Shown here one piece after another: positions 1 through 18,456 of a stretch of DNA of 64,000 nt. The position numbers and the translations under genes were made by a program. The DNA is taken from NCBI RefSeq assembly GCF_009914755.1, contig NC_060928.1. The stretch is one strand, 5' to 3'. Each line of letters begins with the position of its first letter. The first letter of the stretch is position 1. The notes below the pieces were generated by a model. The model did not search any database. It was given only the letters and a program-made list of their open reading frames with translations, and was not told where the DNA came from. Source of the DNA: the human T2T-CHM13v2.0 reference genome, Homo sapiens.

Positions 1-2057
1 TTAAGTTTCTAGAGCATACCTCACAAAGCCCATACCTGTTTTTTAACTACATTGTGTAATAATTTTATAAAAAATGGTTTAATGCTATCATTTTTACTGC
101 TTTTATTATGATGCTTTATAATTTATCGGCTGTGTGAATAAGTAGCCTTTAAACGATGATTTGTTGTTTTCCATAGAAGTGAGCTTATTATTGATTCATG
201 ACTTTCCATGAGAAAGATGAAAATTGATCTGATCTGATTATAACATAACTTGCAAAATCACCAAATAATCTCTTTACATATTAGCGCTTTATAAAATCAA
301 ATACTTCATTTATGCTTGGGGAGAAGTGGAGGAAGTCCACAGAATTGGTATAGATGACTTTTAAAAGTTCTGATTGAGTCTGGTCAATACAAATCATACT
401 TTTTTTTCCTTTAAGTGTGCTATATTATCTCAAATCATAATAGCATGCATTAGTACAGTAGTTTCTGGCAACTTACATTGATTATATTTGTATTATAGAA
501 ACTTTACTACTAATAATAAACATCTTTATAGCTCTTAACATTTTTTGGAGGAGTTTACTGTAATACATATTGTTTTATTATCACATAACATAATCTATAG
601 GTGCTATCATTAATATTACAGAGATATGGAGACTCAAGTTTATACTGTTTAAGCACATAATTGTACAGTACATATCCTATTAGCAGAAGATCCACAAATG
701 AAACATGAAATGTTTTGCTGAAAGTTTATTGTGCTTTCTACTAGAGCAGAAGGCCTTAGATTATTTGTCTTGTCTGAAACCATTTATAAACTATCATGCT
801 AGTCATAATAACAGGAAATTCATATTCCTTGGCAATTTTGAAAGAGAGAATGATAACTTCAGATTTGAGACAGTACATATTAAGCAGTCTAATATTTTAT
901 AAGTATATATAAAATGGAAATGAAGCTCTAGAAATGATTGGACCTAATGATACACCTTTTAGGTGATGCTGTAATTAATGTATTATTTCACTCTCAAGAG
1001 TATCAAAGGCATAGGGAGATGAAAAATAAAGGTTTAGGAATAGGAACACTTATATGAAACAAAATCAGGAAAGAATTTTGGAAAATAGTCATTAGAGTAT
1101 AAACACAGTCCAGTCTTGGAGGTTTCTTTTTAATGAATTTGGACAACTTGAAAAAACATACACTTGGTAATGTACTAGCGTCTATTTTTAATAGTTAACT
1201 GGAAAAGTTTAATGAGAATTCAGATATACTGTATTTTACTATGCGAACTAAACTAAGTAAAATCATAAAATATATAAACCTATCTTTTCCTATTATGTAT
1301 ACTGATGTTTAAAATGCTAATTAGTATTCTTCTACAGTGAGAAGACAATTTCATTGCACATCATGTTACGTTTATTCCTGTGTATGTTGTTTCCTCTATC
1401 TACTGATATTTACAGAATTCTTAGGTTTTTTTTTAATATTAACACCTCCTAAATTATGATCTTCCACAAGCATAGTCCACATGCATAGAAGCACATATTA
1501 ATAACTTCTTAATCAACTATCACACATCTACTATTGACTGTACAATAAAATCTAACCCACATGGATATTGACCCATACTGTAAATCACAGTGCATACATT
1601 CGTTCATCGGACATAGCACATTTCAGTCAAGAAATCCCTCGTCAACATGTATATCCCCTATCAAATTTTGCTCTCTTAATCTACCAACCACTGAGAAATC
1701 ATCATCCCTCTCAGGAGTGGCACCCTCCTGGTTCCAGGCCCATGACACTTGGGGGTGACTATACTGAAACCATACCTGGCATCTGGTTCTTACTTCAGGG
1801 CCATAGAATTAAGATCGCCCACACGTTCCCCTTAAATAAGACATTTCCATGGACTAATGACTACCACCCTATTAACCAGTCACAGGAGCACTGTCATGTC
1901 ATGCATTTGGTACTTTTAACTTTGGGGGATGCTATCACTCACCTGGTCCCTGCCGAATCCGCAGTAGAGGAACTCGGATTTGATTCCTGCCAAATCAATT
2001 GTAGAAGCTAACCTTATATTCATATTCCAGGCTGGCATTATAACCAGAAGGTGTTAC

Positions 2058-2082
2058 TTAATTCATGCTTGAAGGACATAAC
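2058..2082 (+). promoter_or_regulatory. CSB1-like block (NUMT copy)
   Basis: ttaattcatgcttgaaggacataac versus human ttaattaatgcttgtaggacataat. Confidence 0.85.
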
Positions 2083-2100
2083 AATTAATAGACACGCAAG

Positions 2101-2244
2101 CCCGTACCGACGCTCACGCCCGTACCGACGCTCACGCCCGTACCGACGCTCACGCCCGTACCGACGCTCACGCCCGTACCGACGCTCACGCCCGTACCGA
2201 CGCTCACGCCCGTACCGACGCTCACGCCCGTACCGACGCTCACG
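2101..2244. repeat. Perfect minisatellite, 8 x CCCGTACCGACGCTCACG
   Basis: Eight identical 18-bp units read directly, with 4 CpG per unit. Lies between CSB1 and CSB2. Confidence 0.98.
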
Positions 2245-2285
2245 CATGCACTCTGAATTTCAAGAACTATTTCCGATTAAATCTG

Positions 2286-2302
2286 CAATACCCCCTCCCC
2301 GC
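2286..2302 (+). promoter_or_regulatory. CSB2-like block (NUMT copy)
   Basis: caataccccctccccgc versus human caaacccccctcccccgc. Confidence 0.8.
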
Positions 2303-2340
2303 ATCTCTGACTTTACTATCAACCTAGCTAAATGTATCCT

Positions 2341-2359
2341 TGCCAAACCCCAAAAACAA
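2341..2359 (+). promoter_or_regulatory. CSB3 block (NUMT copy)
   Basis: tgccaaaccccaaaaacaa, the canonical CSB3 sequence. Confidence 0.92.
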
Positions 2360-2737
2360 AAGACTAAAATGCAGCACAGTCAGAGCCCAGAAATCATATT
2401 TTAACCATGAACGCCTCAACAGCTACCCCTCGATTGATGTAATTTTTCTAAAAAATCTTAACACCCTCCTACTAAATTAATCCTCCACTTTGTATAATAA
2501 ATATAATAACTAAATTTCTGCCCTAATACTAATATAATACCTTGAGCATATCCCCCGAAAGCATTGCCCCATATATCATCTCCTAAATCAATCATACTCT
2601 TGATTATGAGTGATCTTCTTAGCCAAACCTCTGCCAATTCAACTTTAAAGACCCTGAATTTCCAGAACTGTAAACGACTATTTTTATTTATTTATTTATT
2701 TCTCATATTTTAATATTTACACTTAAGAATTTATGCA

Positions 2738-2808
2738 GTTAATGTAGCTTAATTATTCAAAGCAAGACACTGAAAATGTCTAGATGGATCCGCACAACCC
2801 TATAAACA
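2738..2808 (+). pseudogene. mt-tRNA-Phe(GAA) nuclear pseudogene
   Basis: gttaatgtagctta...gacactgaaaatgtc...tataaaca, anticodon GAA at 2772-2774, positioned between the D-loop and 12S. Confidence 0.93.
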
Positions 2809-3773
2809 GAGAGGTTTGGTCCTGGCCTTTTTACTAGCTCTTAGTAAGATTACACATGTAAGCATCCCTGCCCCAGTGAAAATGCCCTCTAGGTCACCCG
2901 GATCAAAAGGAGCAGGTATCAAGCAAGCATGAATACAGCTCAAAACAACTTTGCTCAACCACACCCCCATGGGAAACGGCAGTGATAAATCTTTAGTAAT
3001 AAACGAAAGTTTAACTAAGCTATACTAATATTTAGGATAGGTCAATTTCGTGCCAGTCACCGCGACCATATGATTAACCCGAGCTGACAGAACTCAGCGT
3101 AAAGAGTGTTTAATTAAGGTCTACCCTCAATAAAGCTAAACTCCAATTGAGTTGTAAAAAACTACAGCTGAAATAAAATATACTACGAAAGTGGCTTTAA
3201 TACCCTGAAGACACAATAGCTAAAACCCAAACTGGGATTAGATACCCCACTATGCTTAGCCCTAAACTCTAATAGTTACATTGAGAAAACCATTCGCCAG
3301 AGTACTACAAGCAACAGCTTAAAACTCAAAGGACTTGGCGGTGCTTTATATCCCTCTAGAGGAGCCTGTTCTATAATTGATAAACCCCGATACAACCACC
3401 TTGCCACCTCTTGCCCGCAGCCTATATACTGCCATCTTCAGCAAACCCTAAAAAAGTTACAGAGTAAGCACAAGTACACATATAAAAACATTAGGTCAAG
3501 GTACAGCCTATGAGGTGGCAAGAAATGGGCTACATTTTCTATATCCGGCAAATCTCACAACAACCTTTATGAAATCTAAGGGCTCAAGGAGGATTTAGTA
3601 GTAAACCAAGCGCAGAGTGCTTGGTTGAATAAGGCCATGAAGCATGCACACACCGCTCATCACCCTCCTCAAATATTACTCTAGAAATCACTATTACTAA
3701 AAACTTTCTATGCACATACAGAGGAGATAAGTTGTAACATGGTAAGCGTACTGGAAAGGGCGCTTGGACAAAC
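2809..3773 (+). pseudogene. Mitochondrial 12S rRNA pseudogene
   Basis: Motifs aggtttggtcctggcctt, aaactgggattagataccccactatgcttagcc and aaactcaaaggacttggcggtgc. 3' end gttgtaacatggtaag shows CpG decay of gtcgtaac. Confidence 0.96.
3510..3572 (+). CDS. MOTS-c-like small ORF, MRWQEMGYIFYIRQISQQPL* (20 aa; expression unknown)
   Basis: Translated by hand from ATG 3510 to TGA 3570-3572. First 11 residues equal MOTS-c (MRWQEMGYIFY). Confidence 0.4.
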   Translation: MRWQEMGYIFYIRQISQQPL

Positions 3774-3842
3774 CAAAGTGTAGCTTAACCCAAAGCATCC
3801 GGCTTACACCTGGAAGATTTCATCATGATCTGTTCACTTTGA
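3774..3842 (+). pseudogene. mt-tRNA-Val(TAC) nuclear pseudogene
   Basis: caaagtgtagcttaacccaaagca...ttacac...cactttga, anticodon TAC at 3805-3807, between 12S and 16S. Confidence 0.93.
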
Positions 3843-4719
3843 GCCAACGCTAGCCCCAAACCTCGCTAAAAATATTATCAAACTATCTTAATCAAACCAT
3901 TTACATTAAACGAAAGTATAGGTGATAGAAATTTTTACCCTGGTGTAGTAGACATAGTACCGTAAAAGAAAGGTGAAAGAACTATATAAAGCACTAAAAA
4001 GCAAAGACAAGCTCTTATACCTTCCGCAAAATGTATTAACTAGAAGTAACTTTACACAGAGGATTATAGCCAAGTCCCCCAAAACCAGATGAGCTACCCA
4101 AGAACAACTGAAGAGTACACCCATCTATGTGGCAAAATAGTTGGGAGATTCATGACTAGCGGTGACAAGCCTACCAAGCCTGGTGATAGTTGGTTGTCCA
4201 ACGTGGAATCTTAGTTCAACTTTAAACTTACCCACAGAATTATTTACTCTCCCTGTAAATTTAGCTGTTAGTCTAAGAGGGACAGCTCTGTAGACCCTAG
4301 GAAACGACGTTCCTACAGAGAGTAAAAAATACTACCACCATAGTTGGCCCAAAAGCAGCCACCAATTAAGAAAGCATTTAAAGCTCAACATCTAACTATC
4401 TTCAATTCTAATCACTCTACTGAACTCCTAACATCATACTGGACTAATCAATTACTTAATAGAACCAATAATGTTAATATAAACATTCTCCATTGCATAC
4501 GTTTACATCAGACTGGAATAACCCACTGACAGTTAACAACCTAATATTAATAAATGATATAATAAGCACCCTATTATTTACACTGTTAACCCAACTAAGG
4601 TATGCTCTAAGGAAAGATTGCAAAAAGTAAGAGGAACATGACAAATCTTACCCCACCTGTTTACCAAAAACATCACCTCTAGCATTACCAGTTTTAGAGT
4701 CACTGCCTGCCCGGTGACA

Positions 4720-4763
4720 TATGTTCAACGGCCATGGTATCCTGACCGTGCAAAGGTAGCATA
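4720..4763 (+). ncRNA. MIR1973: Annotated miR-1973 precursor sequence (16S-derived; authenticity as a miRNA doubtful)
   Basis: tatgttcaacggccatggtatcctgaccgtgcaaaggtagcata matches my recollection of hsa-mir-1973; mature accgtgcaaaggtagcata at 4745-4763. Confidence 0.75.
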
Positions 4764-4795
4764 ATCGCTTGTTCCCTAAATAGGGACTTGTATGA

Positions 4796-4870
4796 ATGGA
4801 CACACAAGGGTTCAGCTGTCTCTTACTTTTAATCAGTGAAATTGACCTATCTGTGAAGAGGCGGATATAA
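4796..4870 (+). CDS. MTRNR2L13: Humanin-like 24-aa ORF [24 protein letters not shown]
   Basis: ATG 4796 to TAA 4868-4870. Homologous to humanin [24 protein letters not shown]. Peptide matches humanin-like 13 from recall. Confidence 0.8.
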   Translation: [24 protein letters not shown]

Positions 4871-7503
4871 ACAAATGAGACTAGAAAACCCTATGGAGCT
4901 TTAATTCATTAATGCAAATAAAAACCCAAACAAGTCTAGAGGCCCTGGCCTACTATCCCTGCATTAAAAATTTTGGTTGGGGTGAGCTCGGAGCATAGTT
5001 CAACCTCCGAACAACCTAAACTAAGACTGCAGTAGTCTAAGCGAGTTAGTACACATTGACCAAATAATTCAATCAACGGAATAAATTACCCTACGGATAA
5101 AAGTATTGACAATAGGGTTTACAACCTCGATGTTGGATGAGGACATCCTAATGGTGTAGCCGCTATTAAGGGTTCGTTTGTTTAACGGTTAAAGTTCTAT
5201 GTGATCTGAGTTCAGACCTGAGTAATCCAGGTCAGTTTCTATCTATATAACATTTATCTTAGTATGAAAGGACAAGAGAAATAGGGCCCACTTCATAAAG
5301 TGCCCTCACTCCATATAGTCTTCCATGCAAAGAAAAATTCATATATTGTCAAAACCACTAAGATTACTAAAAAGTATTTTTCTCAATGTAGACATATGTA
5401 TCAGAAAAACAGAAAAATGTTTACAGATAACATATAAGCAACAAAAATCTAGAAAACTAATCTTATTTATCATATATATATTTCTATATATACATGTAAG
5501 GTAGTTTACATCATGTAAATTACCCTTATTTCAAATTTACATGTACCATGTACATGTACAATACCCTGAAAGAGACTGTCATTAATGCTGGTCATGCCAC
5601 AGCTGTATCATTTCAATGACCAGAAGCTTGCCTGGTCATCATGGAAGTAGTACACTTTTCATGACTTTATGTTATTTCAACTGTTGTTTTATCTCTATGT
5701 TTCTGTATGACATGTCTAGAATGGTACATATGCTCCTAGGGTATGATGTATTTTAAATCAAAACATTTATATAAAATCAATTTTAATTTAGATTTGAATA
5801 GTTTTCTGTTATCTATGACTTGTAGTTATACATGATTTTTTTCTCCCACATTACCCTTGCTATTGAGACTCTCATATTCGATCAATTGTATCAGCACCAT
5901 TTAGTCCTTCCCCACTCTGGAGGTGCAGATTTTAAATATATGCTCAATTATTACATAACTAATAAAATTCATGGTATCATGTGTACCAATTTTTGCAAAA
6001 AGACATTTTGAAAGTAAGTCTATCATTCAAAAGTCATTGAAAACACATTTTAATGTCTAATTATGATAAAAAAATTCACACTTGCATTTGTTTTGAGAAA
6101 TGAATCTGTTATTGTCAGCAATTTAATATGGCATACTGCAAGAAAGTTACTGCTTTCTGACAACACAAAAATTCATAGCTCTCATAAAGAAATGAGTCTG
6201 AAACATGGGAAATTTCCCATGCTAAGCATTTAACTTACAACATAGTCATAAAATTAATAATTATATTCCAATGAAGACAATGGCAAGCTTTTTAAGCTTG
6301 AATGTTGTTAAAAAGGACTATATTGGACAAATTACCATATAGACACTAGAGAATTCTAATATAGACCTGACAAAAATGGACCTTTATTATAATATAGACT
6401 ATAATTTATTACCTAATATTTTTAAGGCAAATTGCTTTTGAAGTTTCCCAGTTCAGAACATTCACATGATTCACTAGAAATGCTTAAGTACATACAGAAC
6501 TTGCCTTTATCCTTAAACTGGGCCAATAATTTCCTCATCATCAAGTGTGTTTGCTTGTGGAACAATGAATGTTACAGGGAGTCCAGTTGATAACACCTGC
6601 CCATTCAAGTCTTTGCTTATGAAAGAACAGGCATTTTCTTCACTCTTCCTAGTCTCTTTACCTTTACACTCATCAGACAAGTCAGTTTAGTATACTCGTT
6701 GATTTTCTTTTCATTTTTTTTCTATTCTTATTCTATTATCTGGATTCCAACAGAGAAGGTCCTGAAAAATATATATTTTTTTATTTTATTACACCAATTT
6801 ATCTGGTTTTGAAGCACAAATATGTATTAACAACAAACTTAGTGAAGAAGGCTTGGAGCTCTTACACATGAACACATACTTTTGATATATTTTAGTTCTG
6901 TTAAAAATGTACATAGCACCTCTCCCACCCCCACACACTGCTTATAAGTATAGTAGAGAAAATGCAGTATTTCCTCAGAAGACGATGGAGAATTTTCCAG
7001 CCTCATTCCCTTTTAGGATACTTACAGTCTGAAAAAGGCATTTCATCCCATCTTGAGCCATTGAGGACAGGTAAAAGTTGGTGTCCAACATTAGACTAAG
7101 TTTCTTTGGTAATGTAAGAACTACGACAAGTCCTTCCTTCTCAATATTTTAGTTTTTGCTTTATTTTTGGTGCTATGCTAATTGGCTACAAGATATTTCT
7201 CACTATCTTAACTTTAAAAAGTGTGAGATTCTTTTTAATTTCCTAGGATATGTAGCCAAAATATTGCAGATAATATTTGGATAATATTGGTAATCAATTT
7301 TAACACACTTGAAATTAAGGAATAATTACAACTACCAAACTGAAAAAGAGCATTGGTTTTAGAAATATTTGTCAAGAAATGAAGAAGCTGGTTATTACTA
7401 TGCAACAACTGAATTTCTTATTTTTAGCATATGAACATGATTAGTCTTTCAGATCTGGCATTTCATTAATTGATCTGATTTTTAGTGAACTGCCATAGTA
7501 GTC

Positions 7504-16120: not shown

Positions 16121-18456
16121 TGTATTAGCTCGTTTTCACACTGCCAATAGAGACATACCTGAGACCGGGCAATTTATAAAAGAAAGAGGTTTAATGGGCT
16201 TACAGTTCCACATGGTTGGGGAGGCCTCGCAATCATGGCAGAAGGTGAAAGACACATCTCACGAGGCAGTAGACAAGAGAAGAGAGAGTGTGCAGGGAAA
16301 CTCCCATTTTTAAAACCATCAGATCTTGTGAGACTCATTCACTATGATGAGAACAACACCAGAAAGACCTGCCACCCTGATTCAGTTACCTCCAACTGCA
16401 TCCATCCCACAACATGTGGGCATTCAATATGATATTTGGATAAGCACACAGCCAAACCATATAATTCCACACTTGGCCCTTCCCAAATCTCATGTCCTCA
16501 CATTTCAAAACCAATCATGCCTTCCCAACAGCCCCCAAAGTCTTAACTCATTTCAGCATTAACTCAGAAGTCCACAGTCCAAAGTCTCATCTGAGACAAG
16601 GCAAGTCCTTTATGCCTATGAGCCTTTATACATTTTCTTATGTTCCTCTGAGCCCTCCAAACTGTTCCAGAATCTTCCTGTTACCCAGTTCAAAAGCAAG
16701 TTAGTTACTTCCTAGATACAATGGGGATACAGGTATTGGGTAAATACAACCATTCCAAATGGGAGAAATTGGCCAAAACAAAGGGGCTAAAGGCCCCATG
16801 CAAGTCTGAAACCCAGTGGGGCAGTCAAATCTTAAAGCTCCAAAAAGCTCTCCTTTGACTCCATGTCTCACATCCATGTCACACTGATGCAAGAGGTGGG
16901 TTCCTATGGTCTTGGGCAACTCTGCCCACATGGCTTTGCAGGGTACATCTTCCCTCCCATCTGCTTTCACAGGCTCACATGAAATTGAGTGTCTGAAGCT
17001 TTTCCAGGTGCATGATCCAAGCTGTCTGCAGATATATTCTTCTGGGGTCTGGAGAATGATGGCCCTCTTCTCACAGTTCCACTAGGCAGTGCCCCAGTAG
17101 GGACTCTGTGTGGAGGCTCCAACCCCACATTTCCCTTCTGTATCACTGTAGCAGAGGTTCTCCGTGAGGGCCCCCGACTGCAGCAGACTTCTGCCTGGGC
17201 ATCCAGTCATTCCCATACATCCTCTGAAATCCAGGAGGATGTTCCCAAGCCTCTATTCTTGACTTCTGTGCACCCACACTCCCAACACCACAAGGAAACT
17301 GTCAAGGCTTGGGGCTTCCAACCTCTGAAACAACAGCCCAAGCTGTGTCTTGGCCCCTTTTAGTCACAGCTGGAGCAGCTGGGATGCAGGACACCAAGTC
17401 TCCATACTGCAAACAACAGAGGGACCCTGGGCCTGGTCCAGAAACCACCTTTTCCTTCTAGGTCTCTGGGCCTGTGATGGGAGGGACTGCTGTGAAGACC
17501 TCTGACATTTCCTGGAGACATTTTCCCCATTGTCTTGGGGATTAACATTTGGCTCCTCATTACTTATGCACATTTCTGTGGCCAGCTTTAATGTTTCCTC
17601 AGAAAATGGGATTTTCTTTTCTATTGCATTGTCAGACTGCAAATTTTCCAAGCTTTTATACTCTGCTTCCTTCATAAAACTGAATGCCTTTAACAGCACC
17701 CAAATCACCTCTTGAATGCTTTGCTGCTTGAAATGTTTTCCACCAGATACCGTAAATCATCTCTGTCAAGTTAAATTCCACAAATCTCTAGGTCAGGGGC
17801 ATAATGCCACCAGTCTTTTTGCTAAAACATTGCAAGAGTCACCTTTGCTCCAGTTCCCAAAAAGTTCCTCATCTTCGTCTGAGACCACCTCAAGCCTGGA
17901 CCTTATTGTTCATATCACTATCAGCATTTTTGTCAAAGCTATTCCACAAGTCTCTAGAAAGTTCCAAACTTTCTCACATTTCCTTATCTTCATCTAAGCC
18001 CTCCAAACTGTTCCAATCTCTGCCTGTTACCCAGTTCCAAAGTCGCTTCCATATTTTTCTGATATTTTTTCAGCAATGCCCCACTCTACTGGTACCAGTT
18101 TCTTATGTTAGTCTGTTTTCATTTTGCTGATAAACACCTGCCTGAGACGGGGTAATTTACAAAAGAAAGAGGTTTATTGGACTTAACAGTTCCACATGGC
18201 TGGAGATGCCTCACGATCATGGTAGAAGGCAAAAGGCATGTCTTACAAGGTGGCAGACAAGAGAAGAGAGCTTGTGCAGGGAAACTCCCCTTTTTAAAAC
18301 TATCAGGTCTCGTGAGACTTATTCACTGTCAGAAGACAAGCACAGCGAAGACCTGCCTCCATGATTCAATTCATGAGTCAATTCCCACCAGGTCCCTCCC
18401 ACAACACATGGGAATTCAAGATGAGATGTGGGTGGGGATACAGCCAAACCATATCA
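16121..18456 (-). mobile_element. Full-length THE1 element on the minus strand: LTRs ~16121-16464 and ~18104-18456
   Basis: Reverse complement of the same LTR-internal-LTR structure as 7504-9752, ending cagccaaaccatatca. TSD not clean. Confidence 0.95.

What the first reader, a model, noticed from the sequence alone, without database searches (positions are those of the whole stretch)
2101..2244. Perfect CpG-saturated 18-bp array (8 copies, 32 CpGs) inside an otherwise CpG-decayed NUMT
Seen: eight identical CCCGTACCGACGCTCACG units, while the surrounding NUMT shows methyl-CpG decay (gtcgtaac>gttgtaac at 3731, ggccgcgg>ggccatgg at 4730, acgacctc>acaacctc at 5121). Known: this CSB1-CSB2 position is where many mammals (pig, dog, horse, rabbit) carry heteroplasmic ACGT/ACAC-rich tandem repeats that human mtDNA lacks. 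Short alternating remnants (gacacgca, cacgcatgcac) flank the array. Inference: an ancestral mitochondrial repeat became an actively turning-over nuclear VNTR and/or escapes germline methylation. That would create a mini CpG island in a CpG desert upstream of the MOTS-c-like, miR-1973 and humanin-like sequences. Best candidate here for an undescribed regulatory element.
Basis: partly seen in the sequence, partly recalled or inferred. Interest (0 to 1): 0.8.

Follow-up and report, generated by a model that had tools for sequence, protein, structure and literature searches.

The report
Mitochondrial-fossil minisatellite, recently re-expanded
A perfect eight-copy, CpG-packed 18-base repeat inside an ancient mitochondrial DNA insert on human chromosome 4 is a leftover of a repeat that ancestral primate mitochondria carried, re-amplified fairly recently in the nucleus; a regulatory role is possible but unshown.

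Summary
Window 2100-2245 holds 8.1 identical 18-bp units with 32 CpGs (o/e 2.0), lying between CSB1 and CSB2 of an old D-loop/tRNA-Phe/12S/tRNA-Val/16S NUMT (about 1467-5317).

Twenty-one other human NUMTs carry a degenerate 14- to 18-bp tract of the same motif family at exactly this site. Six younger, human-like NUMTs do not. The array is therefore a fossil of an ancestral primate mitochondrial RS3-type repeat, and living lorises and galagos still have 14-bp control-region repeats.

The rest of this NUMT has lost 22 of 39 ancestral CpGs, 20 of them to TG/CA. Eight flawless copies cannot be as old as the insert. By self-calibration they were amplified or homogenised within roughly the last tenth of its age.

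The exact unit occurs nowhere else in T2T-CHM13. A 2026 NUMT catalogue that reports two NUMT-derived VNTRs misses this one, because it falls in an unaligned gap between numt_640 and numt_641.

Escape from methylation is neither needed nor tested. The only hints of function are that the block meets the 200-bp CpG-island criteria and coincides with the annotated 5' end of predicted lncRNA LOC105377383.

Verdict: a new member of a known kind, of moderate interest.

The parts
1467..5317 (+). Old NUMT: control region, tRNA-Phe, 12S, tRNA-Val, most of 16S
   Evidence: query bases 18-3866 (window 1467-5315) match other NUMTs at 71-89% identity; mt-tRNA-Phe and mt-tRNA-Val; catalogued as numt_640 and numt_641, fixed, present in GRCh38 (PMC13179385 Suppl. 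Data 3).
2064..2081 (+). CSB1 core
   Evidence: position; the same word, with at most 1-4 mismatches, precedes the repeat tract in the paralogous NUMTs. The name is recalled.
2091..2100 (+). Degenerate upstream remnant of the ancestral repeat tract
   Evidence: Aligns with the start of the tracts in L015, L018, L034 and L064, judged by eye.
2101..2244 (+). Eight identical 18-bp units, 32 CpGs (TRF phase 2100-2245)
   Evidence: all 8 exact genome-wide occurrences of the unit lie here.
2245..2257 (+). Downstream remnant of the ancestral tract
   Evidence: Homologous to the tract ends in L015 and L032, judged by eye.
2258..2274 (+). Conserved block that closes the repeat tract in all old NUMTs
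2291..2300 (+). CSB2-like C-run
   Evidence: Name recalled.
2341..2358 (+). CSB3
   Evidence: Name recalled.
1980..2391 (.). Stretch in which every 200-bp window meets GC>=0.5 and CpG o/e>=0.6
   Evidence: 412 bp, GC 0.507, o/e 1.49, 35 CpGs. No 500-bp Takai-Jones window anywhere in the 64 kb.
1943..2162 (-). First exon of predicted lncRNA LOC105377383; its 5' end lies in unit 4 of the array
   Evidence: Hub annotation (XR_007075329.1, predicted). The minus strand reads CAG|GTGAGT at 1943/1942.
1941..1942 (.). Junction of a 13-bp deletion private to this NUMT, at the lncRNA splice donor
   Evidence: 13 of the 16 aligned paralogs carry 13 bases here, L015 diverges from this point and L023/L024 keep the 13 bases but have a different 5-bp gap just upstream. 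The deletion changes the exon side of a pre-existing GTGAGT to CAG.
2738..2808 (+). mt-tRNA-Phe relic
   Evidence: aragorn, mammalian mitochondrial mode.
3774..3842 (+). mt-tRNA-Val relic

Best explanation
The array is a nuclear minisatellite seeded by the RS3-type tandem repeat that ancestral primate mitochondrial DNA carried between CSB1 and CSB2.

The repeat entered chromosome 4 with a D-loop-to-16S NUMT tens of millions of years ago. Much later, one 18-bp unit was amplified, or the array was homogenised, in the nucleus. That unit is the 14-bp mitochondrial motif plus 4 bases and one substitution. The most likely mechanism is replication slippage or unequal exchange (inferred).

The CpG saturation is inherited from the CG-rich mitochondrial motif. 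It persists only because the present copies are young. No special protection from methylation is required.

The block now forms the only CpG-island-like patch in the 64-kb window. It coincides with the annotated 5' end of a predicted minus-strand lncRNA, so it may act as a weak promoter or first exon, but this is not shown.

Shown here: position, homology to the paralogous tracts, uniqueness, and CpG decay of the surroundings. Inferred: age, recency and mechanism of amplification, and any transcriptional role.
For: (1) Array and CpG content.

(2) Same site in paralogs. Of 27 other NUMT loci with a CSB1 examined, 21 carry a tract of the same motif family between CSB1 and the conserved downstream block.
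- TRF reports period 14-18 arrays in 10 of them, at 75-95% matches.
- None is perfect.
- The 6 loci without a tract are the younger, human-like type (three of them, L023/L024/L027, on the derived side of the tree; L053, L057 and L061 judged by their sequence).

(3) Unit homology. The window units align to the 14-mers of L013 and L033 with exactly one 4-bp gap and about one mismatch per unit.

(4) Literature.
- RS3 repeats lie between CSB1 and CSB2 in mink 'as in other mammals' (PMC8774856, passages).
- Humans and great apes have no control-region repeats.
- Loris and Galago have 14-bp units x ~19 (PMC7348793, Table 1).

(5) Age of the NUMT. Terminal branch 0.069 substitutions per site. 17 of 39 ancestral CpGs kept in the rRNA part, and 20 of 22 losses are TG/CA. 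7 of 18 kept in the D-loop flanks.

(6) Arithmetic.
- If the array were as old as the NUMT, about 18 of its 32 CpGs should be gone.
- P(all 32 kept) = 0.436^32, about 3e-12.
- With the NUMT's own decay rate, zero differences bound the age of the present copies to below about 0.1 of the NUMT's age (95%).

(7) No donor elsewhere. The unit (up to 2 mismatches) occurs 8 times here, plus 2 unrelated single hits in 3.1 Gb.
Against: - No orthologous primate loci, other human assemblies or reads could be examined, so recency and polymorphism are inferred, not seen.
- Period-18 variants also occur in other NUMT tracts (L043, L066/L067, L025). The 18-bp unit length may therefore already have existed in the donor mitochondrial DNA rather than arising in the nucleus.
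- Some paralogous tracts also keep many CpGs (L033 10 in 70 nt, L025 12 in 90 nt), so such tracts may decay more slowly than the rRNA parts.
- The single-stranded array folds no better than shuffles (z +3.5 and +0.99). This gives no support to a hairpin-driven slippage mechanism.
- Branch lengths are not clock-like. Younger-looking L027 has 0.068 and L023/L024 have 0.035 plus a shared 0.049. Absolute dating is therefore rough.
Confidence: 0.72

Rival explanations
1. The array is a long-standing, germline-unmethylated CpG-island promoter of LOC105377383. Its CpGs survive because they are not methylated and/or are under selection.
For: - Meets the 200-bp CpG-island criteria and is the only such CpG cluster of its strength in 64 kb.
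- The annotated lncRNA 5' end is at 2162, inside the array, with a consensus donor at 1943 (hub annotation).
- The modern human D-loop 3' part (chrM 72-573) showed weak cis-regulatory activity in a reporter assay (PMC13179385, passages).
- Each minus-strand unit contains GCGTG. I recall this as the core of AhR/ARNT and HIF sites; this was not tested.
Against: - Hypomethylation alone cannot keep 144 bases identical across 8 copies for the age of the NUMT. At 0.05-0.069 substitutions per site, 7-10 changes are expected (arithmetic).
- Ancestral CpGs 73 bp upstream (2028) and 40 bp downstream (2284) are decayed, so there is no sign of an old protected island.
- Fixed NUMT windows are on average 88% methylated in blood (PMC13179385; not locus-specific).
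- The lncRNA is only a predicted model. A 5' end inside a perfect repeat may be a mapping limit.
- No paper holds the term LOC105377383.
Confidence: 0.15
2. The eight identical units were transferred as such from mitochondrial DNA and have simply survived unchanged.
For: Living mitochondrial arrays are near-identical (95-98% unit identity in Loris and Galago; PMC7348793 Table 1). Period-18 variants exist in other NUMT fossils.
Against: The same NUMT lost 22 of 39 ancestral CpGs, so P(32 of 32 kept) is about 3e-12. All 21 paralogous tracts are degenerate.
Confidence: 0.01
3. The perfect array is an assembly or polishing artefact of T2T-CHM13.
For: None found. Only one assembly could be read.
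Against: - A 144-bp array is far shorter than the long reads behind this assembly (recalled).
- The flanks are collinear with the paralogs on both sides.
- The flanking NUMT segments are listed as fixed and present in GRCh38.
Confidence: 0.02
4. The units were copied in from another genomic locus (gene conversion or a nested later insertion).
For: None.
Against: No other locus in the 3.1-Gb assembly holds the unit or the array. The last unit runs in phase into ancestral tract sequence.
Confidence: 0.01

Closest known systems
RS3 tandem repeats of the mammalian mitochondrial control region (between CSB1 and CSB2)
   Same: - Exact position between CSB1 and CSB2.
- Short CG/ACGT-type units.
- Period 14 in most paralogous fossils, as in the 14-bp control-region repeats listed for Loris and Galago (PMC7348793 Table 1). 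The motif and position of those living arrays were not seen.
- Variable unit length and copy number among lineages (PMC8774856 passages).
   Different: - Sits in nuclear DNA, not in mitochondrial DNA.
- Its 18-bp unit is private to this locus.
- The copies are perfect although the surrounding insert is old.
- Heteroplasmy and a role at the H-strand origin do not apply.
NUMT-derived VNTRs in humans (PMC13179385, Nat Commun 2026: chr12:126.59 Mb and chr2:238.01 Mb in T2T-CHM13)
   Same: Tandem amplification of NUMT sequence after insertion. Replication slippage is the proposed mechanism. Both lie in gene-poor or intronic settings.
   Different: - Not among the two loci that paper reports.
- It lies in the 803-bp stretch between numt_640 and numt_641, which their alignment to the modern reference mtDNA leaves out.
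- Its seed was itself a mitochondrial tandem repeat.
- The unit is short and CpG-saturated.
- Copy-number variation is not yet shown.
Cat Numt macrosatellite (Lopez et al. 1994; seen only as a reference-list entry in PMC13179385, details recalled)
   Same: Mitochondrial DNA amplified in tandem in the nucleus.
   Different: There a multi-kilobase unit was repeated tens of times. Here an 18-bp unit is repeated eight times inside a single-copy NUMT.
Orphan CpG islands and CpG-rich minisatellites that act as promoters (general knowledge, recalled)
   Same: A small CpG-dense block in a CpG-poor, gene-poor region, coinciding with an annotated non-coding transcript start.
   Different: Only about 150 bp of true CpG density. 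The unmethylated state and promoter activity are untested.

Membership tests
NUMT | Collinear homology to mitochondrial gene order (control region, tRNA-Phe, 12S, tRNA-Val, 16S) in nuclear DNA | tested here: met
   Catalogue rows numt_640/641.
Mitochondrial RS3-type control-region repeat (as ancestry, not current membership) | Tandem short units located between CSB1 and CSB2 | tested here: met
   21 of 27 paralogous NUMTs have a related tract at the same site.
Mitochondrial RS3-type control-region repeat (as ancestry, not current membership) | Unit sequence homologous to the mitochondrial motif | tested here: met
   aligns to the L013 and L033 14-mers with one 4-bp gap and about one mismatch per unit.
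Mitochondrial RS3-type control-region repeat (as ancestry, not current membership) | Resides in mitochondrial DNA, with length heteroplasmy | tested here: not met
   It lies on chromosome 4 (hub annotation). It is a fossil, not a member.
VNTR / minisatellite | Head-to-tail units of roughly 10-100 bp | tested here: met
   period 18, 8.1 copies.
VNTR / minisatellite | Copy number varies among individuals | not testable with these tools
   Only one human assembly is held. The catalogue of PMC13179385 does not cover the array.
CpG island | At least 200 bp, GC>=0.5, CpG o/e>=0.6 (Gardiner-Garden and Frommer, recalled) | tested here: met
   window 1980-2391.
CpG island | At least 500 bp, GC>=0.55, o/e>=0.65 (Takai and Jones, recalled) | tested here: not met
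   0 windows.
CpG island | Unmethylated in the germline | not testable with these tools
   No methylation data for the locus. Flank CpGs at 2028 and 2284 are decayed.
Promoter of LOC105377383 | Experimentally supported transcription start in or next to the array | not testable with these tools
   Only a predicted RefSeq model (hub annotation). 0 papers hold the term.

The most novel reading that the evidence does not exclude
A repeat that once sat at the mitochondrial replication origin has been exapted in the nucleus. After a recent, possibly hominid- or human-specific, expansion it forms a germline-unmethylated mini CpG island. This island would drive the lncRNA LOC105377383, whose splice donor was sharpened by a private 13-bp deletion in the same NUMT, with copy number tuning expression.
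Probability: 0.15. Interest if true: 0.65.

Novelty: new member of a known kind. Interest (0 to 1): 0.4.

Why it matters
- It adds a third human locus to the newly described class of NUMT-derived tandem repeats. It is the first whose seed was itself a mitochondrial control-region repeat.
- Human NUMTs turn out to preserve a dated series of the primate RS3 repeat: present in 21 old inserts and absent from 6 younger ones. This matches its loss from human and great-ape mitochondrial DNA.
- There is a practical blind spot. Catalogues built by aligning to the modern reference mtDNA skip the CSB domain of old NUMTs. They therefore miss this array and may overstate the 'depletion' of that D-loop part among fixed NUMTs.
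- If the array proves polymorphic or unmethylated, it would be a clean natural test of how a CpG-dense VNTR behaves in a CpG desert.

Tried and rejected
- Hairpin or cruciform potential of the array: no better than shuffles on either strand.
- ARAGORN in bacterial mode found no tRNAs. The mammalian mitochondrial mode found both.
- Modern mitochondrial DNA as a reference: not held. The assembly has 24 contigs without chrM, so young NUMTs were used as stand-ins.
- Literature:
  - LOC105377383: 0 papers.
  - A 12-base motif of the paralogous tract: 2 unrelated papers.
  - NUMT + VNTR + control region: 25 papers, 15 listed. NUMT + minisatellite: 28 papers, 15 listed. None concerned this locus, judging by title and abstract.
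  - A NUMT-dating preprint (10.1101/016428, passages) concerns a chromosome 8 NUMT.
  - The vertebrate control-region survey (PMC13353940, passages) and the treeshrew paper (PMC8766473, passages) gave no primate motif.
- Absolute dating from the tree: branch lengths are not clock-like, so only a wide range is given.
- A CSB1 word search at 2 mismatches is at chance level (135/110 hits against 131/130 for the reversed control). Only hits with at most 1 mismatch were used. Seven of the 30 fetched loci were non-NUMT chance hits, and 2 further hits were not fetched.

Full report
**Observation.**
The sequence at window 2101-2244 is eight head-to-tail copies of one 18-base unit. TRF reports 2100-2245, period 18, 8.1 copies, 100% matches, no indels, score 292. 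The 144 bases have GC 0.72, 32 CpGs and CpG observed/expected 2.0.

For comparison:
- NUMT to the left: 9 CpGs, o/e 0.34.
- NUMT to the right: 50 CpGs, o/e 0.45.
- Non-NUMT DNA of the window: o/e 0.18-0.20.

The three decayed sites it quoted are where it said. At those sites other NUMTs still hold the undecayed state in 8 of 18, 9 of 20 and 8 of 16 loci.

**Anatomy of the surroundings.**
Window about 1467-5317 is a NUMT running from the control region through tRNA-Phe (2738-2808), 12S and tRNA-Val (3774-3842) into 16S. A CSB1 core lies at 2064, a CSB2-like C-run at 2291 and CSB3 at 2341 (names recalled). The array therefore sits between CSB1 and CSB2.

The assembly held for this window is T2T-CHM13 without chrM, so no modern mitochondrial sequence was available. 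Other NUMTs served as comparison.

**The array is a fossil of a mitochondrial repeat.**
A search of the assembly with the NUMT returned 69 matching pieces at 66-89% identity. Most of them broke at the array. I extracted the stretch between CSB1 and a conserved downstream block from every NUMT locus I could fetch. I then ran a census with the CSB1 word at no more than 1 mismatch.

Census details:
- 32 sites were found and 30 were fetched.
- One of the 30 is the window.
- Seven are non-NUMT chance hits.
- Two hits were not fetched.
- The 2-mismatch class is at chance level and was not used.

In all, 27 other NUMT loci with a CSB1 were examined. Twenty-one carry, at exactly this site, a tract of one motif family built on a 14-base unit rich in CACG/TACG.

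TRF finds period 14-18 arrays in 10 of the 21:

| Locus | Period | Copies | Matches |
|---|---|---|---|
| L013 | 14 | 4.1 and 5.1 | 90% and 81% |
| L018 | 14 | 4.5 | 75% |
| L025 | 17-18 | 3.6-4.7 | 86-87% |
| L029 | 14 | 3.2 | 87% |
| L033 | 14 | 4.0 | 95% |
| L037 | 14 | 3.0 | 75% |
| L043 | 18 | 4.3 | 86% |
| L064 | 14 | 2.9 | 85% |
| L066/L067 (duplicates) | 18 | 4.4 | 82% |

The rest hold one or two decayed units. None is perfect.

The three of them included in the tree lie on its derived side.

The window's units align to the 14-mers of L013 and L033 with exactly one 4-bp gap and about one mismatch per unit.

Literature agrees:
- RS3 repeats lie between CSB1 and CSB2 in mink 'as in other mammals', with an ACGT core (PMC8774856, passages).
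- A survey of primate mitochondrial genomes lists no control-region repeats in humans and great apes.
- The same survey lists 14-bp units x ~19 in Loris and Galago, and other unit lengths in Indri, Tarsius and Alouatta (PMC7348793, passages and Table 1).
- I did not see the sequence or position of those living arrays.

**The present copies are young.**
A tree was built from 17 rRNA parts covering window 2830-4970. It used 16 of the 29 other NUMT loci then fetched (L013-L041); loci with partial or split coverage were left out. It puts the window in a star-like cluster of old NUMTs, with a terminal branch of 0.069 substitutions per site.

I took as ancestral those CpGs still present in at least 3 of 10 other old NUMTs (the five young ones and the long-branched L025 were excluded):
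- In the rRNA part the window keeps 17 of 39. Of the 22 losses, 20 are TG or CA.
- In the D-loop flanks it keeps 7 of 18. Two more sites fall in a deletion.
- The nearest sites are 2028 (lost), 2274 (kept) and 2284 (lost).

Arithmetic on these numbers:
- An array as old as the NUMT should have lost about 18 of its 32 CpGs.
- The chance of keeping all 32 is 0.436^32, about 3e-12.
- Using the NUMT's own decay as the clock gives 32 x 0.83 for CpGs plus about 4-5 for the other 80 bases.
- Zero differences then bound the age of the present copies to below about 0.1 of the NUMT's age at 95%.
- If the array were unmethylated throughout, the bound is about 0.3-0.4 of the NUMT's age.

With recalled neutral rates of 1-2.2e-9 per site per year, 0.069 corresponds to roughly 30-70 million years. 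The copies would then be younger than a few million years if methylated like their surroundings. This dating is rough, because branch lengths are not clock-like.

The unit (up to 2 mismatches) occurs only here in 3.1 Gb, apart from two unrelated single hits. The reversed control gives 241 and 225 hits. Conversion from another locus is therefore excluded.

The period-18 tracts in L043, L066/67 and L025 show that 4-bp gains are common in this motif family. The 18-bp length may thus predate the transfer. The need for later nuclear homogenisation is unaffected.

**Mechanism.**
Replication slippage or unequal exchange within the tract is the ordinary route and is what I infer. Single-strand folding of either strand is no better than shuffles (z +3.5 and +0.99), so a hairpin-driven process has no support.

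**Function.**
The array plus flanks (1980-2391) meets the 200-bp CpG-island criteria. It is by far the densest CpG cluster in the window, with 34 CpGs per 200 bp against at most 8 anywhere outside the array and its immediate flanks. No 500-bp window meets the stricter criteria.

The hub's annotation places the first exon of predicted lncRNA LOC105377383 at 1943-2162 on the minus strand, so its 5' end is inside the array. The minus strand reads CAG|GTGAGT at the exon end. That junction coincides with a 13-bp deletion private to this NUMT, absent from all 16 paralogs in the alignment, 13 of which are cleanly aligned across it.

This is suggestive, but it rests on a predicted model whose 5' end may be limited by mapping in a perfect repeat. 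No paper holds the term LOC105377383.

Fixed NUMT windows are on average 88% methylated in blood, and the modern D-loop 3' part has weak reporter activity (PMC13179385, passages). Neither statement is specific to this locus. Nothing ties the array to the downstream MOTS-c-like, miR-1973 or humanin-like sequences.

**Comparison with what is known.**
PMC13179385 (Nat Commun 2026) reports two NUMT-derived VNTRs as a new source of variation: chr12:126.59 Mb and chr2:238.01 Mb. This locus is not one of them.

Its Supplementary Data 3 lists numt_640 (chr4:119,599,582-119,599,932 = chrM 16301-16645) and numt_641 (chr4:119,600,736-119,603,315 = chrM 574-3175). Both are fixed and present in GRCh38. That leaves window 1933-2735, including the array, unaligned.

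The same gap occurs at the chr1 and chrX NUMTs I checked. The array is therefore a third, overlooked member of that class, with the twist that its seed was a mitochondrial repeat.

Searches for this locus in print found nothing. The large supplementary PDF of PMC13179385 could not be read, and its spreadsheet was cut when stored.

**Verdict.**
The mitochondrial-repeat origin is well supported, and recent nuclear amplification is strongly inferred. Escape from methylation and a regulatory role are open. This is a new member of a known kind, with interest 0.4.

Noticed in passing
window 1933-2735; L013 (chr1:237.36 Mb); L033 (chrX:125.04 Mb): In 3 of 3 old NUMTs checked, the catalogue of PMC13179385 leaves the CSB1/repeat region unaligned between neighbouring NUMT segments, although CSB1-CSB3 are physically present. 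The reported depletion of chrM 72-573 among fixed NUMTs may therefore partly reflect divergence of the ancestral control region from the modern reference.
   Followed up: partly
window 1941-1942: A 13-bp deletion private to this NUMT turns the exon side of a pre-existing GTGAGT on the minus strand into CAG. This gives the consensus donor used by the predicted lncRNA exon 1943-2162.
   Followed up: partly
27 other NUMT loci (L013-L071): Human NUMTs form a time series of the primate control region. 21 old inserts keep a 14-18-bp repeat tract after CSB1, and 6 younger, human-like ones lack it. This matches the absence of control-region repeats in human and great-ape mitochondrial DNA (PMC7348793).
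   Followed up: yes
L035 (chr2:126.25 Mb): An Alu-like element with a poly-T run is inserted right at the end of that NUMT's repeat tract. The identification is by eye.
   Followed up: no
window 4796-4870: An intact 24-codon humanin-like ORF in the 16S part (MTRNR2L13 pseudogene).
   Followed up: partly
window 3510-3572: A MOTS-c-like ORF in the 12S part, open for 20 codons under the standard code.
   Followed up: partly
window 4720-4763 (MIR1973) and NUMT 16S part: An EWAS in blood reports its top hits at MIR1973 (cg22914762, beta 0.23-0.29) and at other NUMT-related genes such as MIR1974 and MTRNR2L5/8/13 (PMC11740490, passages). This pattern looks like probe cross-reaction with unmethylated mitochondrial DNA rather than locus methylation. 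That reading is my inference.
   Followed up: no
L066 and L067 (chr10:47.60 and 48.52 Mb); L023 and L024 (chr7:144.02, chr9:33.67 Mb): Pairs of NUMTs with near-identical control-region tracts, that is, post-insertion segmental duplicates.
   Followed up: no
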